NCBI GenBank assembly: GCA_903896595.1
Contig: CAITYL010000398.1
Span: 7,084 to 71,083 of the forward strand
DNA from: an uncultured Lentisphaerota bacterium
GTDB taxonomy: Bacteria; Verrucomicrobiota; Lentisphaeria; Oligosphaerales; CAITYL01
Direction: 5' to 3'
DNA length: 64,000 nt
A model generated the notes under the pieces. The model did no database searches. It was not told the origin of the DNA and was given only the letters and a program-made list of their open reading frames with translations. Below, piece after piece: positions 6,562 to 39,778 of this stretch; within the stretch, counting starts at the first letter, position 1, and each line of letters starts with the position of its first letter. The position numbers and the translations under genes are program-made.

Positions 6562-6753
6562 ATTCACCACGAAGGCACGAAGGACGCGAAGTTTGATCGA
6601 AGAGTTTCGAAGAAAATTCAAGTATAAAAAGCGATCTCACATTTCGCACGGTTTGAAACATTCTGACTACTGGCTACTGAATTCTGGCTACTTTTGCAAT
6701 TTCCTCAAGCCTCTTCGATTTATCTTCGTGCTCTTCGTGTCTTCGTGGTGAAT
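6562..6753. repeat. triplet-unit hairpin element (arms attcaccacgaaggcacgaaggacgcgaag / cttcgtgctcttcgtgtcttcgtggtgaat)
   Basis: 30-nt arms at 6562-6591 and 6724-6753 are reverse complements with 4 mismatches, 3 of them G-T. Each arm is three tandem 8-nt units (cacgaagg-like). A further pairing is tcgaagag 6597-6604 with ctcttcga 6711-6718. Confidence 0.85.
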
Positions 6754-14568: not shown

Positions 14569-14662
14569 CCCGCAGAGGCGCGGAGGCGCAGAGAAACAGC
14601 CAAGTCAAATTTTGCCATGATGCCTGACCTGATTTTTCTCCGCGCCTCTGCGCCTCTGCGGG
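14569..14662. repeat. triplet-unit hairpin element (cccgcagaggcgcggaggcgcagagaaa / tttctccgcgcctctgcgcctctgcggg)
   Basis: 28-nt arms at 14569-14596 and 14635-14662 are complementary at 26 of 28 positions, with a 38-nt loop. Arms are three cgc(a/g)gag(g/a) units. Confidence 0.85.
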
Positions 14663-22759: not shown

Positions 22760-22842
22760 ACCGCAAAGATCGCAGAGATCGCAAAGATAAAACAATCTAA
22801 AAATACGCCATTACTCTTTGTGTTCTTTGCGTTCTTTGTGGT
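22760..22842. repeat. triplet-unit hairpin element (accgcaaagatcgcagagatcgcaaagat / ctctttgtgttctttgcgttctttgtggt)
   Basis: 29-nt arms with a 25-nt loop. Mismatches are mostly G-T or T-T. Units are cgca(a/g)aga(t). Confidence 0.8.
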
Positions 22843-26262: not shown

Positions 26263-26347
26263 TTCACCGCGAAAGAACGCAGAGAGCGCGAAAGAAAAAT
26301 CTGTACACGTATTTCTTTCGCGATCTTTTGCGTTCTTTCGTGGTGAA
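26263..26347. repeat. triplet-unit hairpin element (ttcaccgcgaaagaacgcagagagcgcgaaagaaa / tttctttcgcgatcttttgcgttctttcgtggtgaa)
   Basis: ~35-nt arms with one bulge and a few G-T pairs; 14-nt loop aatctgtacacgta. Shares the ttcacc(a/g)cgaa terminus with 6562..6753 and 39698. Confidence 0.85.
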
Positions 26348-30579: not shown

Positions 30580-30878
30580 GCGCTGTGCCTTGACTCGTCT
30601 ACGCTATGAGAGCGTCCAATCACAATAATTGTTACCGTACCCGAAACCGTTGTTGCCACCCGCTTGGGGCTGACTATATCACCGGCCGGGAAAGCCGGCA
30701 ATGGTTCAGGATCTACGGAACAATGCCGAAGTCGTCGCCCACGCCAACCCCATGAATTATTATTTACAATCAACTATACTGCAATACAATAAATCACTTC
30801 TATTATGTGCGGCGGATTCACGCATCACGTCTTCACGCATCACGCCTCCCTTCCTGCCGCACCGGTTATATTCCCCGC

Positions 30879-31685: not shown

Positions 31686-34600
31686 TTAATTGAACAGGAA
31701 ATTCAAATCATCTTCCGTGAGCTCGCCAGTGCGCGCGGGAACGCCCGACATGACCTCGTGAATCAGGGCGCGTTTGCGTTCCTGGAGCTGGAGGATTTTC
31801 TCCTCGATCGTGCCGCGCACCACCAGCTTGACCGACGTCACCTGGCGCAACTGCCCGATACGGTGGGCGCGGTCGGTGGCCTGGTCCTCGACCATCGGAT
31901 TCCACCACTGGTCATAGTGGATCACGGTATCGGCGCCGGTAAGATTGAGGCCCGTGCCACCCGCCTTGAGGCTGAGCAGGAACACCGGGACGCCACCCTC
32001 GCGATTGAAGCGGTCCACCCGTGCCTGACGGTCCTTGGTGGCGCCATCCAGATATTCGTAAGGGATGCCGTTCTTCTCCAACCATGGCACAATCAACTTG
32101 AGCAGCGAGGTAAACTGACTGAACAGAATCACCCGGTGCCCCGAGTCAATGGATTCGAGCAGGATTTCCTGCATCAGTTCCGTTTTTGACGATGGCGGGG
32201 TGGCGCCGACGCCGGCCAGCAGTTCCTGGGGAAGCAGGAGCGGGTGGCAGCACACCTGACGCAACCGGGTAAGCAGGGCCAGGACCTGGAAGCGCTTCTT
32301 GCGCCAGCCTTCGACCTTGGCCTGACGCACCAACTCACGCCCCGCGGTCAGGAACGAATTATAGAGCCGGCTCTGACTGTGGTCCATTTCACAATACAGC
32401 ACCTGTTCGATCTTGGGCGGCAGTTCCTGGCAGACATCCGCCTTGCGCCGGCGCAGGATGAAGGGGCGCACCCGCGCGGCCAAATGCCGCCGGGCCAGCG
32501 TCCCCGCCTCGCCGTCCGTGTCTTCATAGCGGTGGCTGAAATTCTGATGGCTGCTCAGAAACCCCGGCATCAGGAAGTCGAACAGTGACCAAACCTCCAG
32601 CAACCCGTTCTCAATCGGCGTGCCGGTGAGGATGATGCGGTGGGACGCCTGCAGTTCTTTGCAGGTTTGGGCGTTGGCCGTCTGGAAGTTCTTGATATGC
32701 TGCGCCTCGTCCAGGATGACCATGTCGAACGGCTGTTCGCGGTAGTGCCGGATGTCGCGTCGCAACAGCGCGTAAGAGGTGATGATCAGGTCCTGATGAG
32801 GCAGGTCGGCGAACGCCTCGGCGCGCTGACTGCCGTGCAGGATCATGCATTTCAGCTCGGGGGTGAATCGGTTCGCCTCGTTGCGCCAGTTTTCCAACAG
32901 GCTGGTCGGACAGACCACCAGCGAGGGCGTCTTAGCGGCGCCGCTGCGCTTGCGCCAGGCCAGCAACGCCAGCGCCTGCAGGGTCTTGCCCAGTCCCATC
33001 TCGTCGGCCAGGATGCCGTGGAACCCGCAGTCCTGCAACATGCCCAGCCAGGCCACGCCTTCCTTTTGGTACCCGCGCAGGATACGTTCCAATTCCGCGC
33101 TCAGCAGCCCCTCGGCCGGTTCGACCCGTTCCCGCAAGCGGCGGCACATGTTGATCCAGTTGGTCTGGAAGCCGGCGGCGGTCTCGCCCAGCAGTCCTTG
33201 CACGGCGGGGCCGGCAAACGTGGGGAAACGCCATTTGGTGCCGTCGCGCGACAAGGTGTCGGCGTCCAGCAACCGCAACAGGTCACGCACACTTTCGGGC
33301 ACGTGTACCAGCGTCCCGCCCCCCAAGATCATGGTGGAGCGGTGGTGGCGGATCGCCTCGAGAATGCTTTCCCAAGGCACGTCCTGGCCGTCCACGGTGG
33401 TCACCCGGCATTCCAATTCAAACCAGGAAATCGTTTCGGTGGCAGGCCGAATATGCGCTTCGGCGACCCCCGCCGAGGCACGCACGCGGAGAAACTCGGG
33501 GGTCATGAAACGGTGCCAAGACGCCGGCAGGCCTTCAAACCCGGAACGGCAGAAATCCCAAATTTTCTCGACGTCTTCCAGAAACCACTCATTGCCGGCG
33601 GCAGTCAGGCGCGGCAGAAACCCGGCTTGGCGCAACCGTTCTTCGGCGGCGGTTTCCGCCGCGGGATCCCGGCTGACCAAATGACGAAGCTGTCCAGAGC
33701 CGGACGCACCCGGATCGAAACGGAATCCGGCATAGCCAAACTCCAGACGCCCAGTCACGCCACCGTCACGCCAGTCAAAATAGGCCACCGGTTCGCAGGG
33801 AACGGGCCGCACCGCGATCACCTCGCCCGCCTGTGCCGCCACGTCACGCACCAGCACGCCGCAGGTGTCGCGCGCCCCCGCCGCCAGCAAACGTTCCAGT
33901 TCCATGGCCGGCATATCCTCGGCTTCACCCCGGAGAATAAAGCGAAAGCAGGCGCCTTCGACTTGGGCAGGCAGCCACCAAAAATGTTCATTCAACCCCA
34001 GCCACCAGCCCGTGCGCCCCGCCAGGATATGCGTTTCCGTTGCCGGCAGCACGCCGATGCCCGGCGCTTCCAACAGCGGACGTACCCGCACCATCTCCGG
34101 CGTCAGCCGGCTCACTTCCAAAACGGGCTGAATGCGTTCCGGATGCAATTCCAAGCGTTGCTCACCCAGAAAAAGGTCCGGAAAGCCGACCAAGCCGTGC
34201 AGAAATTCAGCCAGTTCCAAGACTCCCATCTCCAAGCCCCCCTTCACGGGGTTGGCATTGGCCGAGAGATAGCGCATGATCTGCCGTTCGCGCGGCGAGA
34301 AATCATTCCACACCATGCCGCCCGCGGCACTCCCATTCTCCACCAGGTGCCGGATATTGGCCGCCGCATAGGCACGTCCCTTGACGTGCAGGGTCACTTC
34401 AAACAAGGCCACGGACCAGCGCCGGTCGGCCACCAGGCCGTCCCGCAGGATGCGCAGGACCAAGTGGGGCGGTTGTTCCGCATGGGGAAATAAATGGCGC
34501 ACCGACGTGGCCTGAAACATGGCCGTGGTACTGTCCGGCGTCGCCGCCGCCCGCGCCAGCGGGCTCTCCTTGACGGCGGGTTGCGCGTCCGTCTTCAGGG

Positions 34601-34931
34601 TGCCCGCCGTGGCGGCACCGGTGGGCCACCAGCCCTCCCAGCCGCCCGGGGCGTCCGGATCTTGCTGAAAAAATGCCAGTAACGCCGCTACGGAATGGGC
34701 ACACCAGCCCCGGGGTCGGCCGCATGAACAGGACGGCGCCGCCGCTTCCTTGACAAAGGAAATCTGGCTACGCTCAAAACGTCCCCGCTCGTTGGCCACC
34801 ATGCCCTGCAAGATCTTGGCATTCGGTCGGCGCAACTCCAGCACGGCTCCGGTACGAAAGAGCTTGAGCCCCTCCTCATACACGGCCCGGCCGGAAAAAC
34901 CCGTGATCCAACGTTCAAATTCCGACTGCAT
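31686..34931 (-). CDS. SWIM zinc finger-SNF2 family helicase
   Basis: N-terminal SWIM CSCGRPRGWCAH. SNF2 motifs ADEMGLGKT, DEAQHIKN, LTGTPIEN. Helicase C FLLSLKAGGTGLNLTGADTVIHYDQWWNP ... DRAHRIGQ. Confidence 0.9.
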   Translation of the reverse strand: MQSEFERWITGFSGRAVYEEGLKLFRTGAVLELRRPNAKILQGMVANERGRFERSQISFVKEAAAPSCSCGRPRGWCAHSVAALLAFFQQDPDAPGGWEGWWPTGAATAGTLKTDAQPAVKESPLARAAATPDSTTAMFQATSVRHLFPHAEQPPHLVLRILRDGLVADRRWSVALFEVTLHVKGRAYAAANIRHLVENGSAAGGMVWNDFSPRERQIMRYLSANANPVKGGLEMGVLELAEFLHGLVGFPDLFLGEQRLELHPERIQPVLEVSRLTPEMVRVRPLLEAPGIGVLPATETHILAGRTGWWLGLNEHFWWLPAQVEGACFRFILRGEAEDMPAMELERLLAAGARDTCGVLVRDVAAQAGEVIAVRPVPCEPVAYFDWRDGGVTGRLEFGYAGFRFDPGASGSGQLRHLVSRDPAAETAAEERLRQAGFLPRLTAAGNEWFLEDVEKIWDFCRSGFEGLPASWHRFMTPEFLRVRASAGVAEAHIRPATETISWFELECRVTTVDGQDVPWESILEAIRHHRSTMILGGGTLVHVPESVRDLLRLLDADTLSRDGTKWRFPTFAGPAVQGLLGETAAGFQTNWINMCRRLRERVEPAEGLLSAELERILRGYQKEGVAWLGMLQDCGFHGILADEMGLGKTLQALALLAWRKRSGAAKTPSLVVCPTSLLENWRNEANRFTPELKCMILHGSQRAEAFADLPHQDLIITSYALLRRDIRHYREQPFDMVILDEAQHIKNFQTANAQTCKELQASHRIILTGTPIENGLLEVWSLFDFLMPGFLSSHQNFSHRYEDTDGEAGTLARRHLAARVRPFILRRRKADVCQELPPKIEQVLYCEMDHSQSRLYNSFLTAGRELVRQAKVEGWRKKRFQVLALLTRLRQVCCHPLLLPQELLAGVGATPPSSKTELMQEILLESIDSGHRVILFSQFTSLLKLIVPWLEKNGIPYEYLDGATKDRQARVDRFNREGGVPVFLLSLKAGGTGLNLTGADTVIHYDQWWNPMVEDQATDRAHRIGQLRQVTSVKLVVRGTIEEKILQLQERKRALIHEVMSGVPARTGELTEDDLNFLFN

Positions 34932-35000
34932 GAGTTCCCATTCACCGTAAAGTTGGATTCGTGCGTCTCGCGCGATACCCGCCCCACCCCCGCTCCGAAT

Positions 35001-35366
35001 CTACTTGACAACCGGTGGTGGAACCGCCTTCAACAAGCCACCCGTGGCGCCCACCGTGGGCCACCAGCCCTCCCAACCGTCCGGCGCCACCGGTTCCAGC
35101 TGGATAAACGCCAGCAAAGCCGCGATGGAGTGAACACACCAGCCTCGCGGCCGGCCGCACGAACAGGAGGGCGCGGCCGTTTCTTTCATAAACGAAATTT
35201 GGCTGCGCTCAAAACGACCGCCTTCGTTGGCTACTAGGCACTGCACAATCTTGGGATTGGGACGGCTTAGTTCCAGCACGGCTCCCGCGCGAAAAAGCTT
35301 CAGTCCCTCCTCGTACACGATGCGTCCGGAAAAACCCGTGATCCAGCGTTCAAATTCGGATTGCAT
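35001..35366 (-). CDS. stand-alone SWIM-domain protein, paralog of the SNF2 helicase N-terminus
   Basis: 121 aa from ATG 35366 (MQSEFERWITGFSGR...). Roughly 85% identical by eye to residues 1-105 of 31686..34931, including CSCGRPRGWCVH. Confidence 0.7.
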   Translation of the reverse strand: MQSEFERWITGFSGRIVYEEGLKLFRAGAVLELSRPNPKIVQCLVANEGGRFERSQISFMKETAAPSCSCGRPRGWCVHSIAALLAFIQLEPVAPDGWEGWWPTVGATGGLLKAVPPPVVK

Positions 35367-35401
35367 GTTTTTTCCTTCAGCGTTAGTCGGTCCGTCAGCC
35401 T

Positions 35402-36454
35402 TCACGTTGTCACCTCCGCCACCACAGCGGCGGCTTCCCGCAACACCCGCTCCGTATCATCCCATCCCAAGCAGGCATCCGTCACCGATAATCCCGCCTG
35501 GGGCTTGCCCCCGGCGGGAATTTCCTGACGCCCACCCAGCAAATGGCTCTCCAACATGAAACCGCGAATGACCTCCGCGCCACCACGAACTTGCGCCAGC
35601 ACGTCTTGCAACACCACAATCTGGCGTTGCGGATCTTTGCCGGAATTCGCGTGACTGCAGTCCACAATCAGATTGGGGTCCACCCCCATTTTACTCAACA
35701 GCTCCTGCGCCAAGACGATATGCTCTGAGGTGTAGTTGGGCCCCTCATACCCGCCGCGCAAGACCAGATGCCCAAAACGATTGCCACGCGTGCGGAAAGT
35801 GGCCACCCGCCCGTCACCGGTCACCCCAATGAAGGTGTGGGGCGAAGCCGCCGTGCGAATGGCGTCCACCGCCACCTTCATGCTGCCGTCCGTGGTGTTT
35901 TTGAACCCGATCGGCATGGACAACCCGCTGGCCATCTGCCGATGCGTCTGGCTCTCGGTGGTCCGGGCGCCAATGGCCGCCCACGACACTAAGTCCGTAA
36001 AGTACTGGGGCACCACCGGCTCCAAAATTTCCGCCCCGGCCGGAACGCCGAGTTCATTGATATCCAAGAGAATGCGCCTGGCCAGCCGCAGCCCGGCTTC
36101 GATGTCGCAGGTGTCATTCATGGCGGGGTCATAGATCAACCCCTTCCAGCCCAACGTGGTGCGCGGCTTCTCGAAATAAACCCGCATCACCACCAGCAAC
36201 TGCCGCTCCAATTCACGGGCCAGCCGGCGCAGCCGGGTGGCGTATTCAACCGCATCCTCGCGGCTGTGAATCGAGCAGGGCCCGACAATGGCGATCAGCC
36301 GGCGGTCGCGCTGGCTCAGAATATTCTCCAGCCCTGCCCGCGCCATCACCACCGTATCGGCCGCCCGCGCGGTCAACGGCAATTCGGTCTTGATCGCGTC
36401 TGGAGGCGTTAACGGCGCGAACCGCTCGATTCTTAAATTGTCTGTGCGTACCAT
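35402..36454 (-). CDS. aroG: class I (AroG/F/H-type) 3-deoxy-7-phosphoheptulonate (DAHP) synthase
   Basis: Collinear with E. coli AroG from memory: GPCSIH, VMRVYFEKPRTT.GWKGLI.DP, GARTTESQ.HR, GFKN.TDG, DCSHANS. Start set to ATG 36454 (MVRTDNLRIERF). Isozyme specificity unknown. Confidence 0.9.
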   Translation of the reverse strand: MVRTDNLRIERFAPLTPPDAIKTELPLTARAADTVVMARAGLENILSQRDRRLIAIVGPCSIHSREDAVEYATRLRRLARELERQLLVVMRVYFEKPRTTLGWKGLIYDPAMNDTCDIEAGLRLARRILLDINELGVPAGAEILEPVVPQYFTDLVSWAAIGARTTESQTHRQMASGLSMPIGFKNTTDGSMKVAVDAIRTAASPHTFIGVTGDGRVATFRTRGNRFGHLVLRGGYEGPNYTSEHIVLAQELLSKMGVDPNLIVDCSHANSGKDPQRQIVVLQDVLAQVRGGAEVIRGFMLESHLLGGRQEIPAGGKPQAGLSVTDACLGWDDTERVLREAAAVVAEVTT

Positions 36455-36512
36455 CCGTGATCTTTCTTCCCCAACCCGACCACAACTCAAACCGTGAAAT
36501 TAACCGCCGCCC

Positions 36513-36584
36513 AACCCCTCAACCCCTCAACCCCTCAACCCCTCAACCCCTCAACCCCTCAACCCCTCAACCCCTCAACCCCTA
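36513..36584. repeat. 8-nt tandem repeat (aacccctc)x8 plus one degenerate unit; G-rich (gaggggtt)n on the minus strand
   Basis: Eight perfect units at 36513-36576 and aaccccta at 36577-36584. Lies 5 nt after the stop of 36589..37347 and 59 nt upstream of the DAHP synthase ATG. Confidence 0.95.
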
Positions 36585-36588
36585 CCCC

Positions 36589-37347
36589 TCAGAACGACAC
36601 CTTCACATCCCCCGTCATGCGGATCGGCGGCGGAATCAGCTTGAGCCCGGCCGGCGTCGCCCAGTCCCGCTCCCAGCTTCGCAGCAACAACGGCCCGGTC
36701 GGCGGCCCCCAAGGGTTGAGATCCACCAGCAACAGACGCTTGTCCGAGGTCAGATAGACATCGGCCACCAAGGTGTCCGCCGGCCACCCGGACGCCAGGC
36801 GCGCGGCAAACTCCAAGCCGCGCTCCCAAATCTCTCCAGTCCGCCCCGCCAGTCGGCGAAAATGACGTTCCAGGCAGTACTGGCTCATTGCGGCCAATTG
36901 CCGCCGGTGAATAAACAGCCGAAATTCGCGGGCCCGGTCCATGCGCCGAAAAGGGCGCACCACCAACCGGGTGGAATGCCCCTCACTCAACGCCGTCCGC
37001 ACCTGTGGACTGGTTGCCAGCAACCGCCAAGCGGTGGAGGCGGTAAAAATCCCGCGTCGCGCCTGGTACAGCGGACTGTCGGTCGGGGCGCACACATCCG
37101 CGTTCACCACACAGGCCCCGGTGAAGGCGCCCATCCCCTGTCGCAACGCCTCCACTCCCGTTCGCGCCGCGGCCGAAACGTCGTCTCCAGCCAGCAACGC
37201 CTGAATGGTGTCTGCTGACAGGGGAATGAAAACGCTGGGAAAGGTCACGTTCCCCAACGAGGCATACCACGATGAAATAGGAAAAAAATGCGGTTCCACG
37301 CTAATGCCACCCACCCAACAATCCAAAAAACCGACTCGCATGCACAA
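36589..37347 (-). CDS. CDC123/D123-like ATP-grasp family protein
   Basis: ISSWYASLGNVTFPSVFIPL, REFRLFIHRRQLAAMSQYC and VADVYLTSDKRLLLVDLNPWGPPTGPLLLRSWERDW parallel the eukaryotic Cdc123 blocks (SWY..f, EWRCFV...L.aISQ, DVYi...kv.LIDfNPf...TDpLLFsW.EL) as I recall them. Confidence 0.6.
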   Translation of the reverse strand: MCMRVGFLDCWVGGISVEPHFFPISSWYASLGNVTFPSVFIPLSADTIQALLAGDDVSAAARTGVEALRQGMGAFTGACVVNADVCAPTDSPLYQARRGIFTASTAWRLLATSPQVRTALSEGHSTRLVVRPFRRMDRAREFRLFIHRRQLAAMSQYCLERHFRRLAGRTGEIWERGLEFAARLASGWPADTLVADVYLTSDKRLLLVDLNPWGPPTGPLLLRSWERDWATPAGLKLIPPPIRMTGDVKVSF

Positions 37348-38170: not shown

Positions 38171-38456
38171 GCTCAGCCGTGCCTGGGGCCAGGGCCTCCT
38201 CCCCGTCGCCGCCGCCTCCGTGCGAACTCCGCAAACGTGGTTCCGCGATGGCTGGGACGGACTCAGTGCCGAAGGCTTCACCGCCGACGGCCGCCTGCTG
38301 CTCTCGAATCTGCGCGCCGCGCCAACCACCTTTACCCTGACCGCCGCCGCGCCCGCTTGGGAAATCCAGGCGGTGGACGGCACTTCCCGCCTCACTGCCG
38401 CCCACCAACTCACCCTCAACCCCTGTGAACTGGCACTGGCCAAGGAATTAGTCTGA
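38163..38456 (+). pseudogene. possible C-terminal remnant of a glycoside hydrolase beta-sandwich
   Basis: The open frame reads ...WFRDGWDGLSAEGFTADGRLLLSNLRAAPTTFTLTAAAPAWEIQAVDG ... LTLNPCELALAKEL, like the C-terminal ends of the hydrolases in this window. No credible N-terminus. Confidence 0.25.
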
Positions 38457-38516
38457 CTTGTCCGACTGGTCTGACTTGTCCGACAACCCCCAACCACTCA
38501 CCAGCGTTCAAATCAC

Positions 38517-39697: not shown

Positions 39698-39778
39698 ATT
39701 CACCACGAAGACAAATCGAAACGATGTTTTTGGTGCTCATTTTTTGACCGCGGATTACGCGGATTAACGCGGATAAAA
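39698..39778. repeat. degenerate triplet-unit arms (attcaccacgaagaca ... gtttttggtg; ccgcggattacgcggattaacgcggataaaa)
   Basis: The 39698-39740 segment is a collapsed version of the attcaccacgaag hairpin, followed by ctcatttttt. The 39748-39778 segment is a lone three-unit arm (cgcggatta) with no partner nearby. Confidence 0.6.

What the first reader, a model, noticed from the sequence alone, without database searches (positions are those of the whole stretch)
36513..36584. (GAGGGGTT)8-9 tract on the coding strand 59 nt upstream of the DAHP synthase start: potential G-quadruplex and slippage-prone spacer
There are eight perfect 8-nt units plus one degenerate unit. On the minus strand, which is the sense strand for both flanking genes, it reads GGGG-TTGA repeated. 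That gives at least eight G4 runs with 4-nt loops, enough for two stacked intramolecular quadruplexes in DNA or in the mRNA leader. It resembles ciliate telomeric repeats (TTGGGG) with two extra bases. The unit length is not a multiple of 3, and the tract lies 5 nt after the CDC123-like stop. Copy-number slippage would therefore change promoter or 5'-UTR spacing for aroG-type DAHP synthase, the entry point to aromatic biosynthesis.
Basis: partly seen in the sequence, partly recalled or inferred. Interest (0 to 1): 0.55.

Follow-up and report, generated by a model that had tools for sequence, protein, structure and literature searches.

The report
G-rich octamer repeat splitting an operon junction
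A real ten-run (GGGGTTGA) repeat grew recently inside a spacer that separates two formerly overlapping genes of a Lentisphaeria-like bacterium, and it is a new example of the quadruplex-prone repeats already described in Xanthomonas and Nostoc rather than a promoter switch.

Summary
The tract is real. On the minus (sense) strand it reads TGA-GGGG-TA-(GGGGTTGA)8-GGGGTTG. That is nine perfect units plus one degenerate unit containing the stop codon of the D123-like gene, giving ten GGGG runs. The aroFGH-class DAHP synthase ATG lies 57 nt further on. It is not a promoter element. In array-less relatives the two genes overlap (TGATG or TAATG). One relative has a 77-nt spacer with about three degenerate units. 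The closest lineage and the window carry perfect arrays. So this is a young, lineage-specific expansion in an intercistronic spacer. Two haplotypes of the species have exactly the same copy number. ViennaRNA's G4 model predicts two four-tier quadruplexes. No promoter, terminator or Rfam family matches. Position and strand fit the G-rich, quadruplex-prone 6-9-nt repeats of Xanthomonas and Nostoc (Rehm 2015). Those sit on or just after stop codons on the coding strand, or just before starts on the other strand. The same octamer occurs in about 60 other assemblies from many phyla with that polarity. Verdict: a new member of a known kind. It is probably a tolerated slippage product that broke translational coupling. 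A regulatory quadruplex role is unproven. Interest is modest.

The parts
36512..36583 (-). Nine perfect AGGGGTTG units (72 nt). The sense strand is G-rich with no C. The + strand is CAACCCCT with no G.
   Evidence: 8 overlapping 16-mers vs 0.05 expected; TRF score 146
36584..36591 (-). Degenerate first unit TGAGGGGT. Its TGA (36589-36591) is the stop codon of the D123-like gene, so the array overlaps the stop.
   Evidence: In relative L093 this unit is a perfect GGGGTTGA directly after TGA.
36455..36511 (-). 57-nt non-repeat remainder of the lineage-specific spacer: GGCGGCGG, decayed unit-like pieces (GGTTTGAG, TTGTGGTC, GGGTTGGGG) and a purine-rich SD-like GGAAGAAAGA (36461-36470), which ends 6 nt before the ATG.
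   Evidence: It is homologous to the 3' part of the 77-nt spacer of relative L094, which has GGAGGAAAGA.
36589..37341 (-). D123/CDC123-like (ATP-grasp family) gene, 250 aa, upstream cistron
   Evidence: Pfam PF07065 E=6.2e-18; 130 homologues, the named ones from Lentisphaeria, Victivallaceae and Kiritimatiellaeota; gene calls
35402..36454 (-). DAHP synthase of the aroFGH class (type I-alpha), 350 aa, downstream cistron. The start ATG at 36452-36454 is the same codon that overlaps the D123 stop in relatives.
   Evidence: Pfam PF00793 E=1.6e-75; TIGR00034 449.7 bits, NF009395 485 bits; junction alignment

Best explanation
The tract is a simple-sequence repeat of the G-rich, quadruplex-prone 6-9-nt class. 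It expanded by replication slippage inside a young intercistronic spacer of a D123-like/DAHP-synthase operon in a Lentisphaeria-like bacterium.

Shown:
- Ancestrally the two genes were coupled through a one-base stop/start overlap (TGATG or TAATG).
- In this lineage 133 nt now sit exactly between TGA and (A)TG.
- A sister lineage has a 77-nt version with about three degenerate units.
- The closest lineage and the window have perfect arrays.

Inferred:
- The array has no dedicated switch function. It persists because this position and orientation are what selection tolerates: G-rich on the mRNA just after a stop codon and more than 50 nt from the next ribosome-binding site. A G4 at the ribosome-binding site, or a C-rich Rho-loading stretch on the mRNA, would be harmful.
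- Its consequences are that stop/start-overlap coupling is lost and the DAHP synthase must initiate from its own SD-like site.
- The operon mRNA and the non-template DNA strand carry a segment able to fold into two four-tier quadruplexes. If these form in vivo, they would act as a passive structural block or insulator at the end of the upstream cistron. That would protect the 3' end or cause modest polarity, rather than act as a variable promoter spacer.
For: The array is verified and far beyond chance.

Operon junction in relatives:
- 90%-identity D123, five assemblies: GTTCTGATGGTACGC.
- 76%-identity relative, three assemblies: TTTTAATGGTACGC.
- 87% nucleotide-identity JGI contig: also an overlap.
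- 88% relative: a 77-nt spacer whose 5' part aligns to the repeat as degenerate units and whose 3' part, with GGAGGAAAGA, aligns to the window's non-repeat part.
- 93% relative: TGA followed directly by at least 3.25 perfect units.

Other evidence:
- No promoter-like or terminator-like site in the spacer, and no Rfam family.
- G4 prediction: the tract goes from -3.2 to -62.4 kcal/mol, and the 256-nt region from -75.6 to -114.6. G4Hunter reaches 2.48.
- The class is described. Rehm et al. [quoted passage not shown] They are transcribed, next to genes of general metabolism, and were judged unlikely to be phase-variable.
- The same polarity holds for this very octamer elsewhere. An ATG with an ORF of at least 100 aa lies within 30 nt downstream on the C-strand in 15 of 62 arrays, against 1 of 72 on the G-strand. 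The genes are housekeeping, for example CysRS, an ABC ATPase, trehalase and NAD kinase. Several G-sense arrays abut the end of the upstream ORF as in the window.
Against: No expression, structure-probing or read-level data exist, so both 'tolerated' and 'passive block' are inferences. Perfect unit identity, persistence in two lineages about 7% apart in protein sequence, and an identical copy number in two haplotypes could equally mean the array is maintained by selection. Only 64 kb of this genome could be examined and it holds one such array. Genome-wide dispersal, a feature of the described class, is therefore not shown for this organism. The ViennaRNA G4 term is a simple model that ignores competition from duplex DNA, helicases and ribosomes.
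Confidence: 0.6

Rival explanations
1. The array is a selected regulatory element. RNA or non-template-strand DNA quadruplexes between the cistrons tune DAHP-synthase output relative to the D123-like protein. Possible routes are RNA-polymerase pausing or R-loop-linked partial termination, protection of the upstream mRNA 3' end, or control of ribosome access. The ten GAGG-containing units could alternatively act as a standby landing pad for 30S subunits.
For: G4 potential is very strong, with ten runs, enough for two stacked-tetrad units. The units are perfect. The array is present in two diverged lineages. Copy number is identical in two haplotypes. The array sits where coupling was broken, so the downstream gene needs a new mode of initiation. 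The non-random polarity of such arrays across genomes (PMC4692102) shows that selection acts on them.
Against: Relatives at 76-90% identity manage without any spacer. The 88% relative has only decayed units. Rehm et al. could not identify a regulatory role for the class. The array ends 57 nt from the ATG, outside the region near the ribosome-binding site where, from my recollection of Holder and Hartig 2014, G4s repress translation in E. coli. Polarity can be explained by purifying selection alone.
Confidence: 0.22
2. The tract is a contingency locus whose unit number changes rapidly by slippage and thereby changes promoter or 5'-UTR spacing, giving phase-variable DAHP-synthase expression.
For: The unit length is not a multiple of three. 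The array is long and perfect, the kind of sequence that slips. Repeat content differs between related lineages. Short-read assemblies often break in it.
Against: No promoter-like site is found. The genes form an operon with an overlapping stop and start in relatives. The array lies outside any ORF, so frame is unaffected. All three spanning contigs, including a second haplotype, have the same number of units. The neighbouring genes are metabolic, not surface or host-interaction genes. Phase variation was judged unlikely for this class of repeats.
Confidence: 0.07
3. The functional strand is the C-rich + strand. As RNA, (CAACCCCU)n is G-free and unstructured. It would load Rho and stop antisense transcription, or serve as the leader of a small antisense ORF (ATG at 36617, 46 codons).
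For: The + strand of the array has 0% G and 62% C over 72 nt and is predicted to be fully unpaired. In other genomes the C-strand is usually the sense strand, immediately 5' of a start codon. An ATG lies 26 nt downstream on the + strand.
Against: The + strand downstream is antisense to a well-supported gene. The ORF is only 46 codons and has no support. No + strand promoter is seen nearby.
Confidence: 0.05
4. The tract is an assembly or sequencing artefact.
For: Four contigs end inside it, and one contig (L002) joins different sequence right after TGAGGGGTAGGGG.
Against: An identical full array with both flanks is found in an independent sample and haplotype (L004). A third contig has the same 134-nt gap. 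A related array occurs in a 93% relative.
Confidence: 0.01

Closest known systems
G-rich quadruplex-forming heptamer SSRs of Xanthomonas (GGGAATC) and Nostoc (GGGGA(C/T)T), Rehm et al. 2015, PLoS One, PMC4692102
   Same: Head-to-tail 6-9-nt units, each carrying a G-run. Four or more units. Intergenic, between co-directional ORFs. [quoted passage not shown] Next to ordinary metabolic genes. Unit number and sequence vary between related strains. Function unknown.
   Different: The unit is an octamer (GGGGTTGA) with four-G runs. The host is a PVC-group (Lentisphaeria-like) bacterium. Genome-wide abundance is not shown here. In vitro G4 folding was not tested. Here the birth of the array can be placed at a formerly overlapping stop/start junction.
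Cyanobacterial short tandemly repeated repetitive (STRR) heptamers (Calothrix/Nostoc; Mazel et al. 1990, from my own knowledge; cited as ref. 39 in PMC4692102)
   Same: Short tandem units with a G4/C4 core (for example CCCCAGT), dispersed in intergenic DNA, function unknown.
   Different: Heptamers, and a cyanobacterial lineage. No link to stop/start junctions is documented, to my knowledge.
SSR contingency loci for phase variation (Haemophilus, Neisseria, Campylobacter)
   Same: Slippage-prone tandem repeats whose unit length is not a multiple of three.
   Different: Those repeats lie inside 5' coding regions, or between or next to promoter elements of surface or host-interaction genes, and are heterogeneous within populations. 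This array is intercistronic, flanks metabolic genes, and is invariant in the contigs available.
REP-type intercistronic stabiliser elements of enterobacterial operons (established knowledge, not tested here)
   Same: A structured, non-coding insert just after the stop codon of an upstream cistron. It could block 3' exonucleases and alter the relative output of operon genes. This is the 'works like' analogy.
   Different: REPs are imperfect palindromes forming hairpins. This tract has no hairpin potential (-3.2 kcal/mol without the G4 term) and would need a quadruplex to be structured.
Ciliate telomeric repeats (TTGGGG)n / (TTTTGGGG)n
   Same: G4 runs separated by T-rich loops, with known quadruplex folding.
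   Different: This array is internal to a bacterial operon and not at a chromosome end. The unit contains GA. There is no telomerase context. The resemblance is compositional only.

Membership tests
G-rich quadruplex-prone 6-9-nt SSRs (Rehm et al. 2015) | Head-to-tail repeats of a 6-9-nt unit containing a run of at least three G | tested here: met
   Period 8, 10.2 copies, unit GGGGTTGA
G-rich quadruplex-prone 6-9-nt SSRs (Rehm et al. 2015) | At least four G-runs, so that an intramolecular G4 is possible | tested here: met
   Ten GGGG runs. The canonical G4 regex matches twice. The ViennaRNA gquad model places two four-tier G4s.
G-rich quadruplex-prone 6-9-nt SSRs (Rehm et al. 2015) | [quoted passage not shown] | tested here: met
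   The first unit contains the D123 stop codon. The G-rich strand is the coding strand of both genes. The feature is defined.
G-rich quadruplex-prone 6-9-nt SSRs (Rehm et al. 2015) | Unit number and sequence vary between related strains or species at the same locus | tested here: met
   No spacer, a 77-nt spacer with about 3 degenerate units, at least 3.25 perfect units, or 9+1 units
G-rich quadruplex-prone 6-9-nt SSRs (Rehm et al. 2015) | Many copies dispersed over the same genome (over-representation) | tested here: inconclusive
   Only one array in the 64-kb window. The octamer outside it occurs at about chance level. Dispersal is seen in other genomes, for example 11 loci in one Thermoguttaceae MAG.
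G-rich quadruplex-prone 6-9-nt SSRs (Rehm et al. 2015) | K+-dependent G4 folding of the oligonucleotide in vitro (CD spectroscopy) | not testable with these tools
   Only the in-silico prediction is available
SSR phase-variation (contingency) locus | The repeat lies within a 5' coding region, or between or next to promoter elements, so that unit number switches expression | tested here: not met
   The array is intercistronic and outside ORFs. There is no promoter-like site. The genes overlap in relatives, so they form an operon.
SSR phase-variation (contingency) locus | Heterogeneous unit number within and between closely related populations | tested here: inconclusive
   Three of three spanning contigs are identical, including a second haplotype. 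No read-level data are available.
Intrinsic (Rho-independent) terminator | G+C-rich hairpin followed by a U-tract | tested here: not met
   None in 36455-36591. The tract has no hairpin potential.
Known RNA families (leaders, riboswitches) upstream of aromatic-pathway genes | Match to an Rfam covariance model | tested here: not met
   No hit at the gathering threshold. The only hit is a chance-level one (E=4) inside the aroG coding region.
Telomere-type terminal repeats | Located at the end of a linear replicon | tested here: not met
   The array is internal, flanked on both sides by conserved genes in several contigs

The most novel reading that the evidence does not exclude
(GGGGTTGA)n and its variants may be a functional, orientation-dependent intergenic module shared by Bacteroidota, PVC bacteria and other phyla. 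With the C-rich strand on the mRNA, it would act as an unstructured, Shine-Dalgarno-independent leader directly before start codons. With the G-rich strand on the mRNA, as in this window, it would act as a quadruplex insulator or all-frame stop trap placed on the stop codon. In that second role it would actively uncouple neighbouring cistrons, and in this lineage it would have been recruited to give the first enzyme of aromatic biosynthesis its own expression level.
Probability: 0.15. Interest if true: 0.7.

Novelty: new member of a known kind. Interest (0 to 1): 0.35.

Why it matters
Bacterial mRNAs are generally thought to be depleted of stable quadruplex sequences (my recollection of Guo and Bartel 2016). 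A ten-run array on the sense strand of a core-metabolism operon is therefore a useful natural test case. The locus offers a rare before-and-after series: an overlapping stop/start, then a short spacer with decayed units, then a perfect array. This shows how such repeats are born and what they do to translational coupling. Natural array-less and array-bearing relatives allow a direct comparison of operon expression. The wider observation could help explain why this repeat class exists at all. The identical octamer occurs in about 60 assemblies from many phyla, with strict polarity relative to start and stop codons of housekeeping genes. Its purpose was left open in the 2015 description.

Tried and rejected
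- Rfam at gathering threshold on the whole window, and at E up to 10 on 36300-36800, gave only a tRNA-Leu and a chance-level hit.
- The promoter and terminator scan found nothing in the spacer.
- tblastn of the four operon proteins against the 78 repeat-bearing loci found no orthologous locus.
- blastn of the window against those loci showed that the source genome was not among the rows returned.
- The metagenome scan with the D123 3'-end pattern returned mostly chance matches. Only one was a true relative (L139), and it lacks the array.
- Viral-contig scans for the array and two control octamers gave 0, 1 and 0 hits. They are uninformative as a control for whether GGGGTTGA is special.
- Literature searches for the octamer and its dimer found only primers and unrelated sequences. 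A search for bacterial intercistronic G4s found nothing relevant.
- Antisense ORFs through the array (253 aa and 87 aa on the + strand) were rejected as coding. The D123 Pfam hit and the codon-position GC support the minus strand.
- I looked for the 57-nt non-repeat part and the odd L002 junction elsewhere in the window and in the loci, in case the insert was a mobile element. There were no extra copies.
- A telomere reading was rejected because the array is internal.

Full report
**Observation**

The tract is present as described. Read on the minus strand from 36591 down to 36512, it is TGA GGGG TA (GGGGTTGA)x8 GGGGTTG, followed by GGCGGCGG.
- In the AGGGGTTG register there are nine perfect units at 36512-36583. 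The 16-mer dimer occurs 8 times against 0.05 expected, and none of 100 shuffles reached that count.
- A tenth, degenerate unit (TGAGGGGT, 36584-36591) contains the stop codon of the upstream gene. That gives ten GGGG runs.
- Tandem Repeats Finder reports 36512-36591, period 8, 10.2 copies, score 146. This is by far the best array in the window.
- It is also the longest and highest-scoring G4Hunter segment (96 nt, maximum 2.48).
The array overlaps the stop codon rather than starting 5 nt after it. It ends 57 nt before the ATG at 36454.

**Neighbours and organism**

The upstream minus-strand ORF (36589-37341) is a D123/CDC123-family protein (PF07065, E=6e-18). The downstream one (35402-36454) is a DAHP synthase of the aroFGH class (PF00793, E=1.6e-75; TIGR00034, 450 bits). 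Codon-position GC supports the minus strand as coding. The named homologues of the D123-like protein come from Lentisphaeria, Victivallaceae and Kiritimatiellaeota MAGs. The nearest named one, at 76% identity, is from a Lentisphaeria bacterium. The window therefore comes from a Lentisphaeria-like member of the PVC group.

**Is it an artefact, and does copy number vary?**

Exact-protein look-ups found several other assemblies of the same species.
- One contig (L004) carries the full array and both flanks, identical to the window. It comes from another sample and from a different haplotype: its sequence departs from the window beyond 38075 and beyond 35746.
- A third contig has the same 134-nt gap between the two genes.
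- Four contigs end inside the array.
- One contig (L002) continues with unrelated sequence straight after TGAGGGGTAGGGG and then ends. That is probably an assembly-graph jump, and I could not resolve it.
- The array is therefore real, and no copy-number polymorphism is visible within the species at the level of assemblies.

**What the locus looked like before**

This is the most informative result.
- In relatives whose D123-like protein is 90% identical (five assemblies) or 76% identical (three assemblies), and in a JGI contig with 87% nucleotide identity, the two genes overlap by one base...GTTCTGATGGTACGC... or ...TTTTAATGGTACGC.... The pair is therefore an operon with the overlapping stop/start arrangement typical of translational coupling.
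- In the window, 133 nt sit exactly between TGA and (A)TG.
- A relative at 88% identity (L094) has a 77-nt spacer at the same point. Its 5' part (TTTAGTTGAGTGGCTGTGACAGGTTCAAC) aligns to the repeat as about three degenerate units. Its 3' part, including GGAGGAAAGA shortly before the ATG, is homologous to the window's non-repeat 57 nt, where the motif is GGAAGAAAGA.
- The closest relative, at 93% identity (L093), has TGA followed directly by at least 3.25 perfect units before its contig ends.
- The tract is therefore a lineage-specific expansion within a young intercistronic spacer. It is not an old regulatory region and not a promoter. No sigma-70-like promoter, intrinsic terminator or Rfam family matches the spacer.

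**Structure potential**

With ViennaRNA's quadruplex term switched on:
- The minimum free energy of the tract alone goes from -3.2 to -62.4 kcal/mol, with two four-tier G4s.
- The 256-nt junction region goes from -75.6 to -114.6 kcal/mol.
- Without the G4 term the tract is essentially unstructured.
- The complementary C-rich RNA is predicted to be fully unpaired.

These are model predictions only.

**The same repeat elsewhere**

- The assemblies are mostly Bacteroidota and Verrucomicrobiota. Planctomycetota, Actinomycetota, Cyanobacteria and others also appear. One Thermoguttaceae MAG has 11 loci.
- None of these loci is orthologous to the window locus.
- Because the unit carries TGA in all three frames, the G-strand is never coding. 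The C-strand is open in all frames.
- Polarity is strong. An ATG followed by an ORF of at least 100 aa lies within 30 nt downstream on the C-strand in 15 of 62 arrays, against 1 of 72 on the G-strand.
- Those genes are ordinary housekeeping genes with intact N-termini, such as cysteinyl-tRNA synthetase, an ABC ATPase, trehalase, NAD kinase and a FliH-like protein.
- A smaller group has the window's layout. The G-strand is sense and the upstream ORF ends at the array, for example in an Opitutaceae MAG (L044).
- I could not run a control scan with other octamers on the same collection, and viral contigs were uninformative. Whether this particular octamer is over-represented therefore remains open.

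**Comparison with what is known**

Rehm et al. 2015 (PMC4692102) described G-rich, quadruplex-forming heptamer repeats in Xanthomonas and Nostoc.
- The repeats are abundant and mostly intergenic, between co-directional ORFs.
- They are transcribed, and they vary in unit number between related strains.
- They are associated with general-metabolism genes, so phase variation was judged unlikely. No function was identified.

The window's tract meets every sequence-level criterion of that class. The exception is genome-wide abundance, which I could not test on 64 kb. It differs in unit (an octamer with four-G runs) and in phylum. No paper in the library contains the dimer in a bacterial context.

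**Most likely mechanism**

Shown: the array is a slippage-type repeat that grew in a new spacer at a formerly overlapping stop/start junction, on the coding strand, starting at the stop codon.

Inferred:
- It is a tolerated by-product rather than a switch.
- The two preferred layouts can be explained by purifying selection. A G-rich mRNA segment is harmful at a ribosome-binding site but harmless after a stop codon. A C-rich, G-free mRNA segment is harmless or helpful before a start codon, but after a stop codon it would invite Rho.
- Here the consequences are loss of stop/start coupling, initiation of the DAHP synthase from its own purine-rich site, and a possible quadruplex block at the end of the upstream cistron.

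**Verdict**

The tract is a new member of a known kind. The attractive part is the evolutionary series at the junction and the cross-phylum polarity of the identical octamer. Interest is modest (0.35).

Noticed in passing
window 6568-6594 vs 6723-6750; 14569-14593 vs 14636-14662; 22762-22788 vs 22815-22842; single arrays at 26313-26340, 30818-30845, 38451-38484, 39749-39774: Intergenic regions of this genome carry many short arrays (three copies of a 7-9-nt unit). They often come as inverted pairs around an AT-rich spacer of 40-130 nt, for example CCGCAGAGGCGCGGAGGCGCAGAG ... its reverse complement. These could form long hairpins. Their nature (terminators, REP-like elements or binding sites) is unknown.
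   Followed up: partly
L097 2340-2760 (57%-identity relative of the D123-like gene): The region between a 72-codon ORF and the DAHP-synthase gene has a similar architecture. (GAAATTA)3 starts on the stop codon, an inverted partner (TAATTTC-like x3) follows, and a C/A-rich array (CAAAATC x4) runs straight into the ATG. Arrays on stop codons and C-rich arrays before starts seem to be a habit of this clade.
   Followed up: partly
L085, L090, L095, L097 and window 35402-37341: A bacterial D123/CDC123-like (ATP-grasp family) gene is overlapped at its stop codon by the DAHP-synthase start in several Lentisphaeria-like lineages. In another lineage it is overlapped by an AMP-binding enzyme gene. This suggests a functional link that nobody seems to have described.
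   Followed up: partly
window 34565-34948 and 35000-35383: These two stretches are 77% identical at the DNA level. The small ORF after the DAHP-synthase gene (121-134 aa) is a duplicate of the N-terminal region of the adjacent 1081-aa SNF2-family helicase.
   Followed up: no
L018, L023, L024, L037, L038, L040, L043, L055, L059, L064, L075 (Thermoguttaceae MAG SPRUCE 569): One planctomycete MAG has at least 11 loci with this octamer. At several of them a conserved module precedes the C-rich array on the sense strand. The module is a G-rich array in the opposite orientation (GGGGATGA/GGGGATAA units), then a GC palindrome (GGCGGCCAACGGCCGCC), then the C-rich array, then the ATG. This amounts to a dispersed composite element.
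   Followed up: partly
L008, L023, L026, L027, L037, L040, L047, L056, L059 and others: In Bacteroidota, Planctomycetota, Verrucomicrobiota and a cyanobacterium, (TCAACCCC)n ends 2-25 nt before the true ATG of housekeeping genes. There is no room for a Shine-Dalgarno sequence, so the array is a G-free repeat used as the immediate 5' leader.
   Followed up: partly
L002 10754-10830 (JGI 3300045718): This contig matches the window perfectly up to TGAGGGGTAGGGG. It then continues with unrelated sequence (GTCCAGGATCAGGAGGTCCCATAAGAG...GGGTTTGGGATTAGAGGTTGG) that is absent from the window, and ends. It is either a structural variant or an assembly jump between G-rich repeats.
   Followed up: partly
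window 38075 and 35746 (L004, L005, L006): Contigs from three samples are 100% identical to the window between these points. They share a different sequence beyond 38075, and L004 also departs beyond 35746 into AT-richer DNA. A second haplotype with breakpoints close to this operon therefore exists.
   Followed up: no
window 38413-38424: One and a half units of the same repeat (CCCTCAACCCCT on the + strand) lie in the intergenic region upstream of the + strand hydrolase gene, next to the GTCCGACTT array. This may be a proto-array in the usual C-strand-sense orientation.
   Followed up: no
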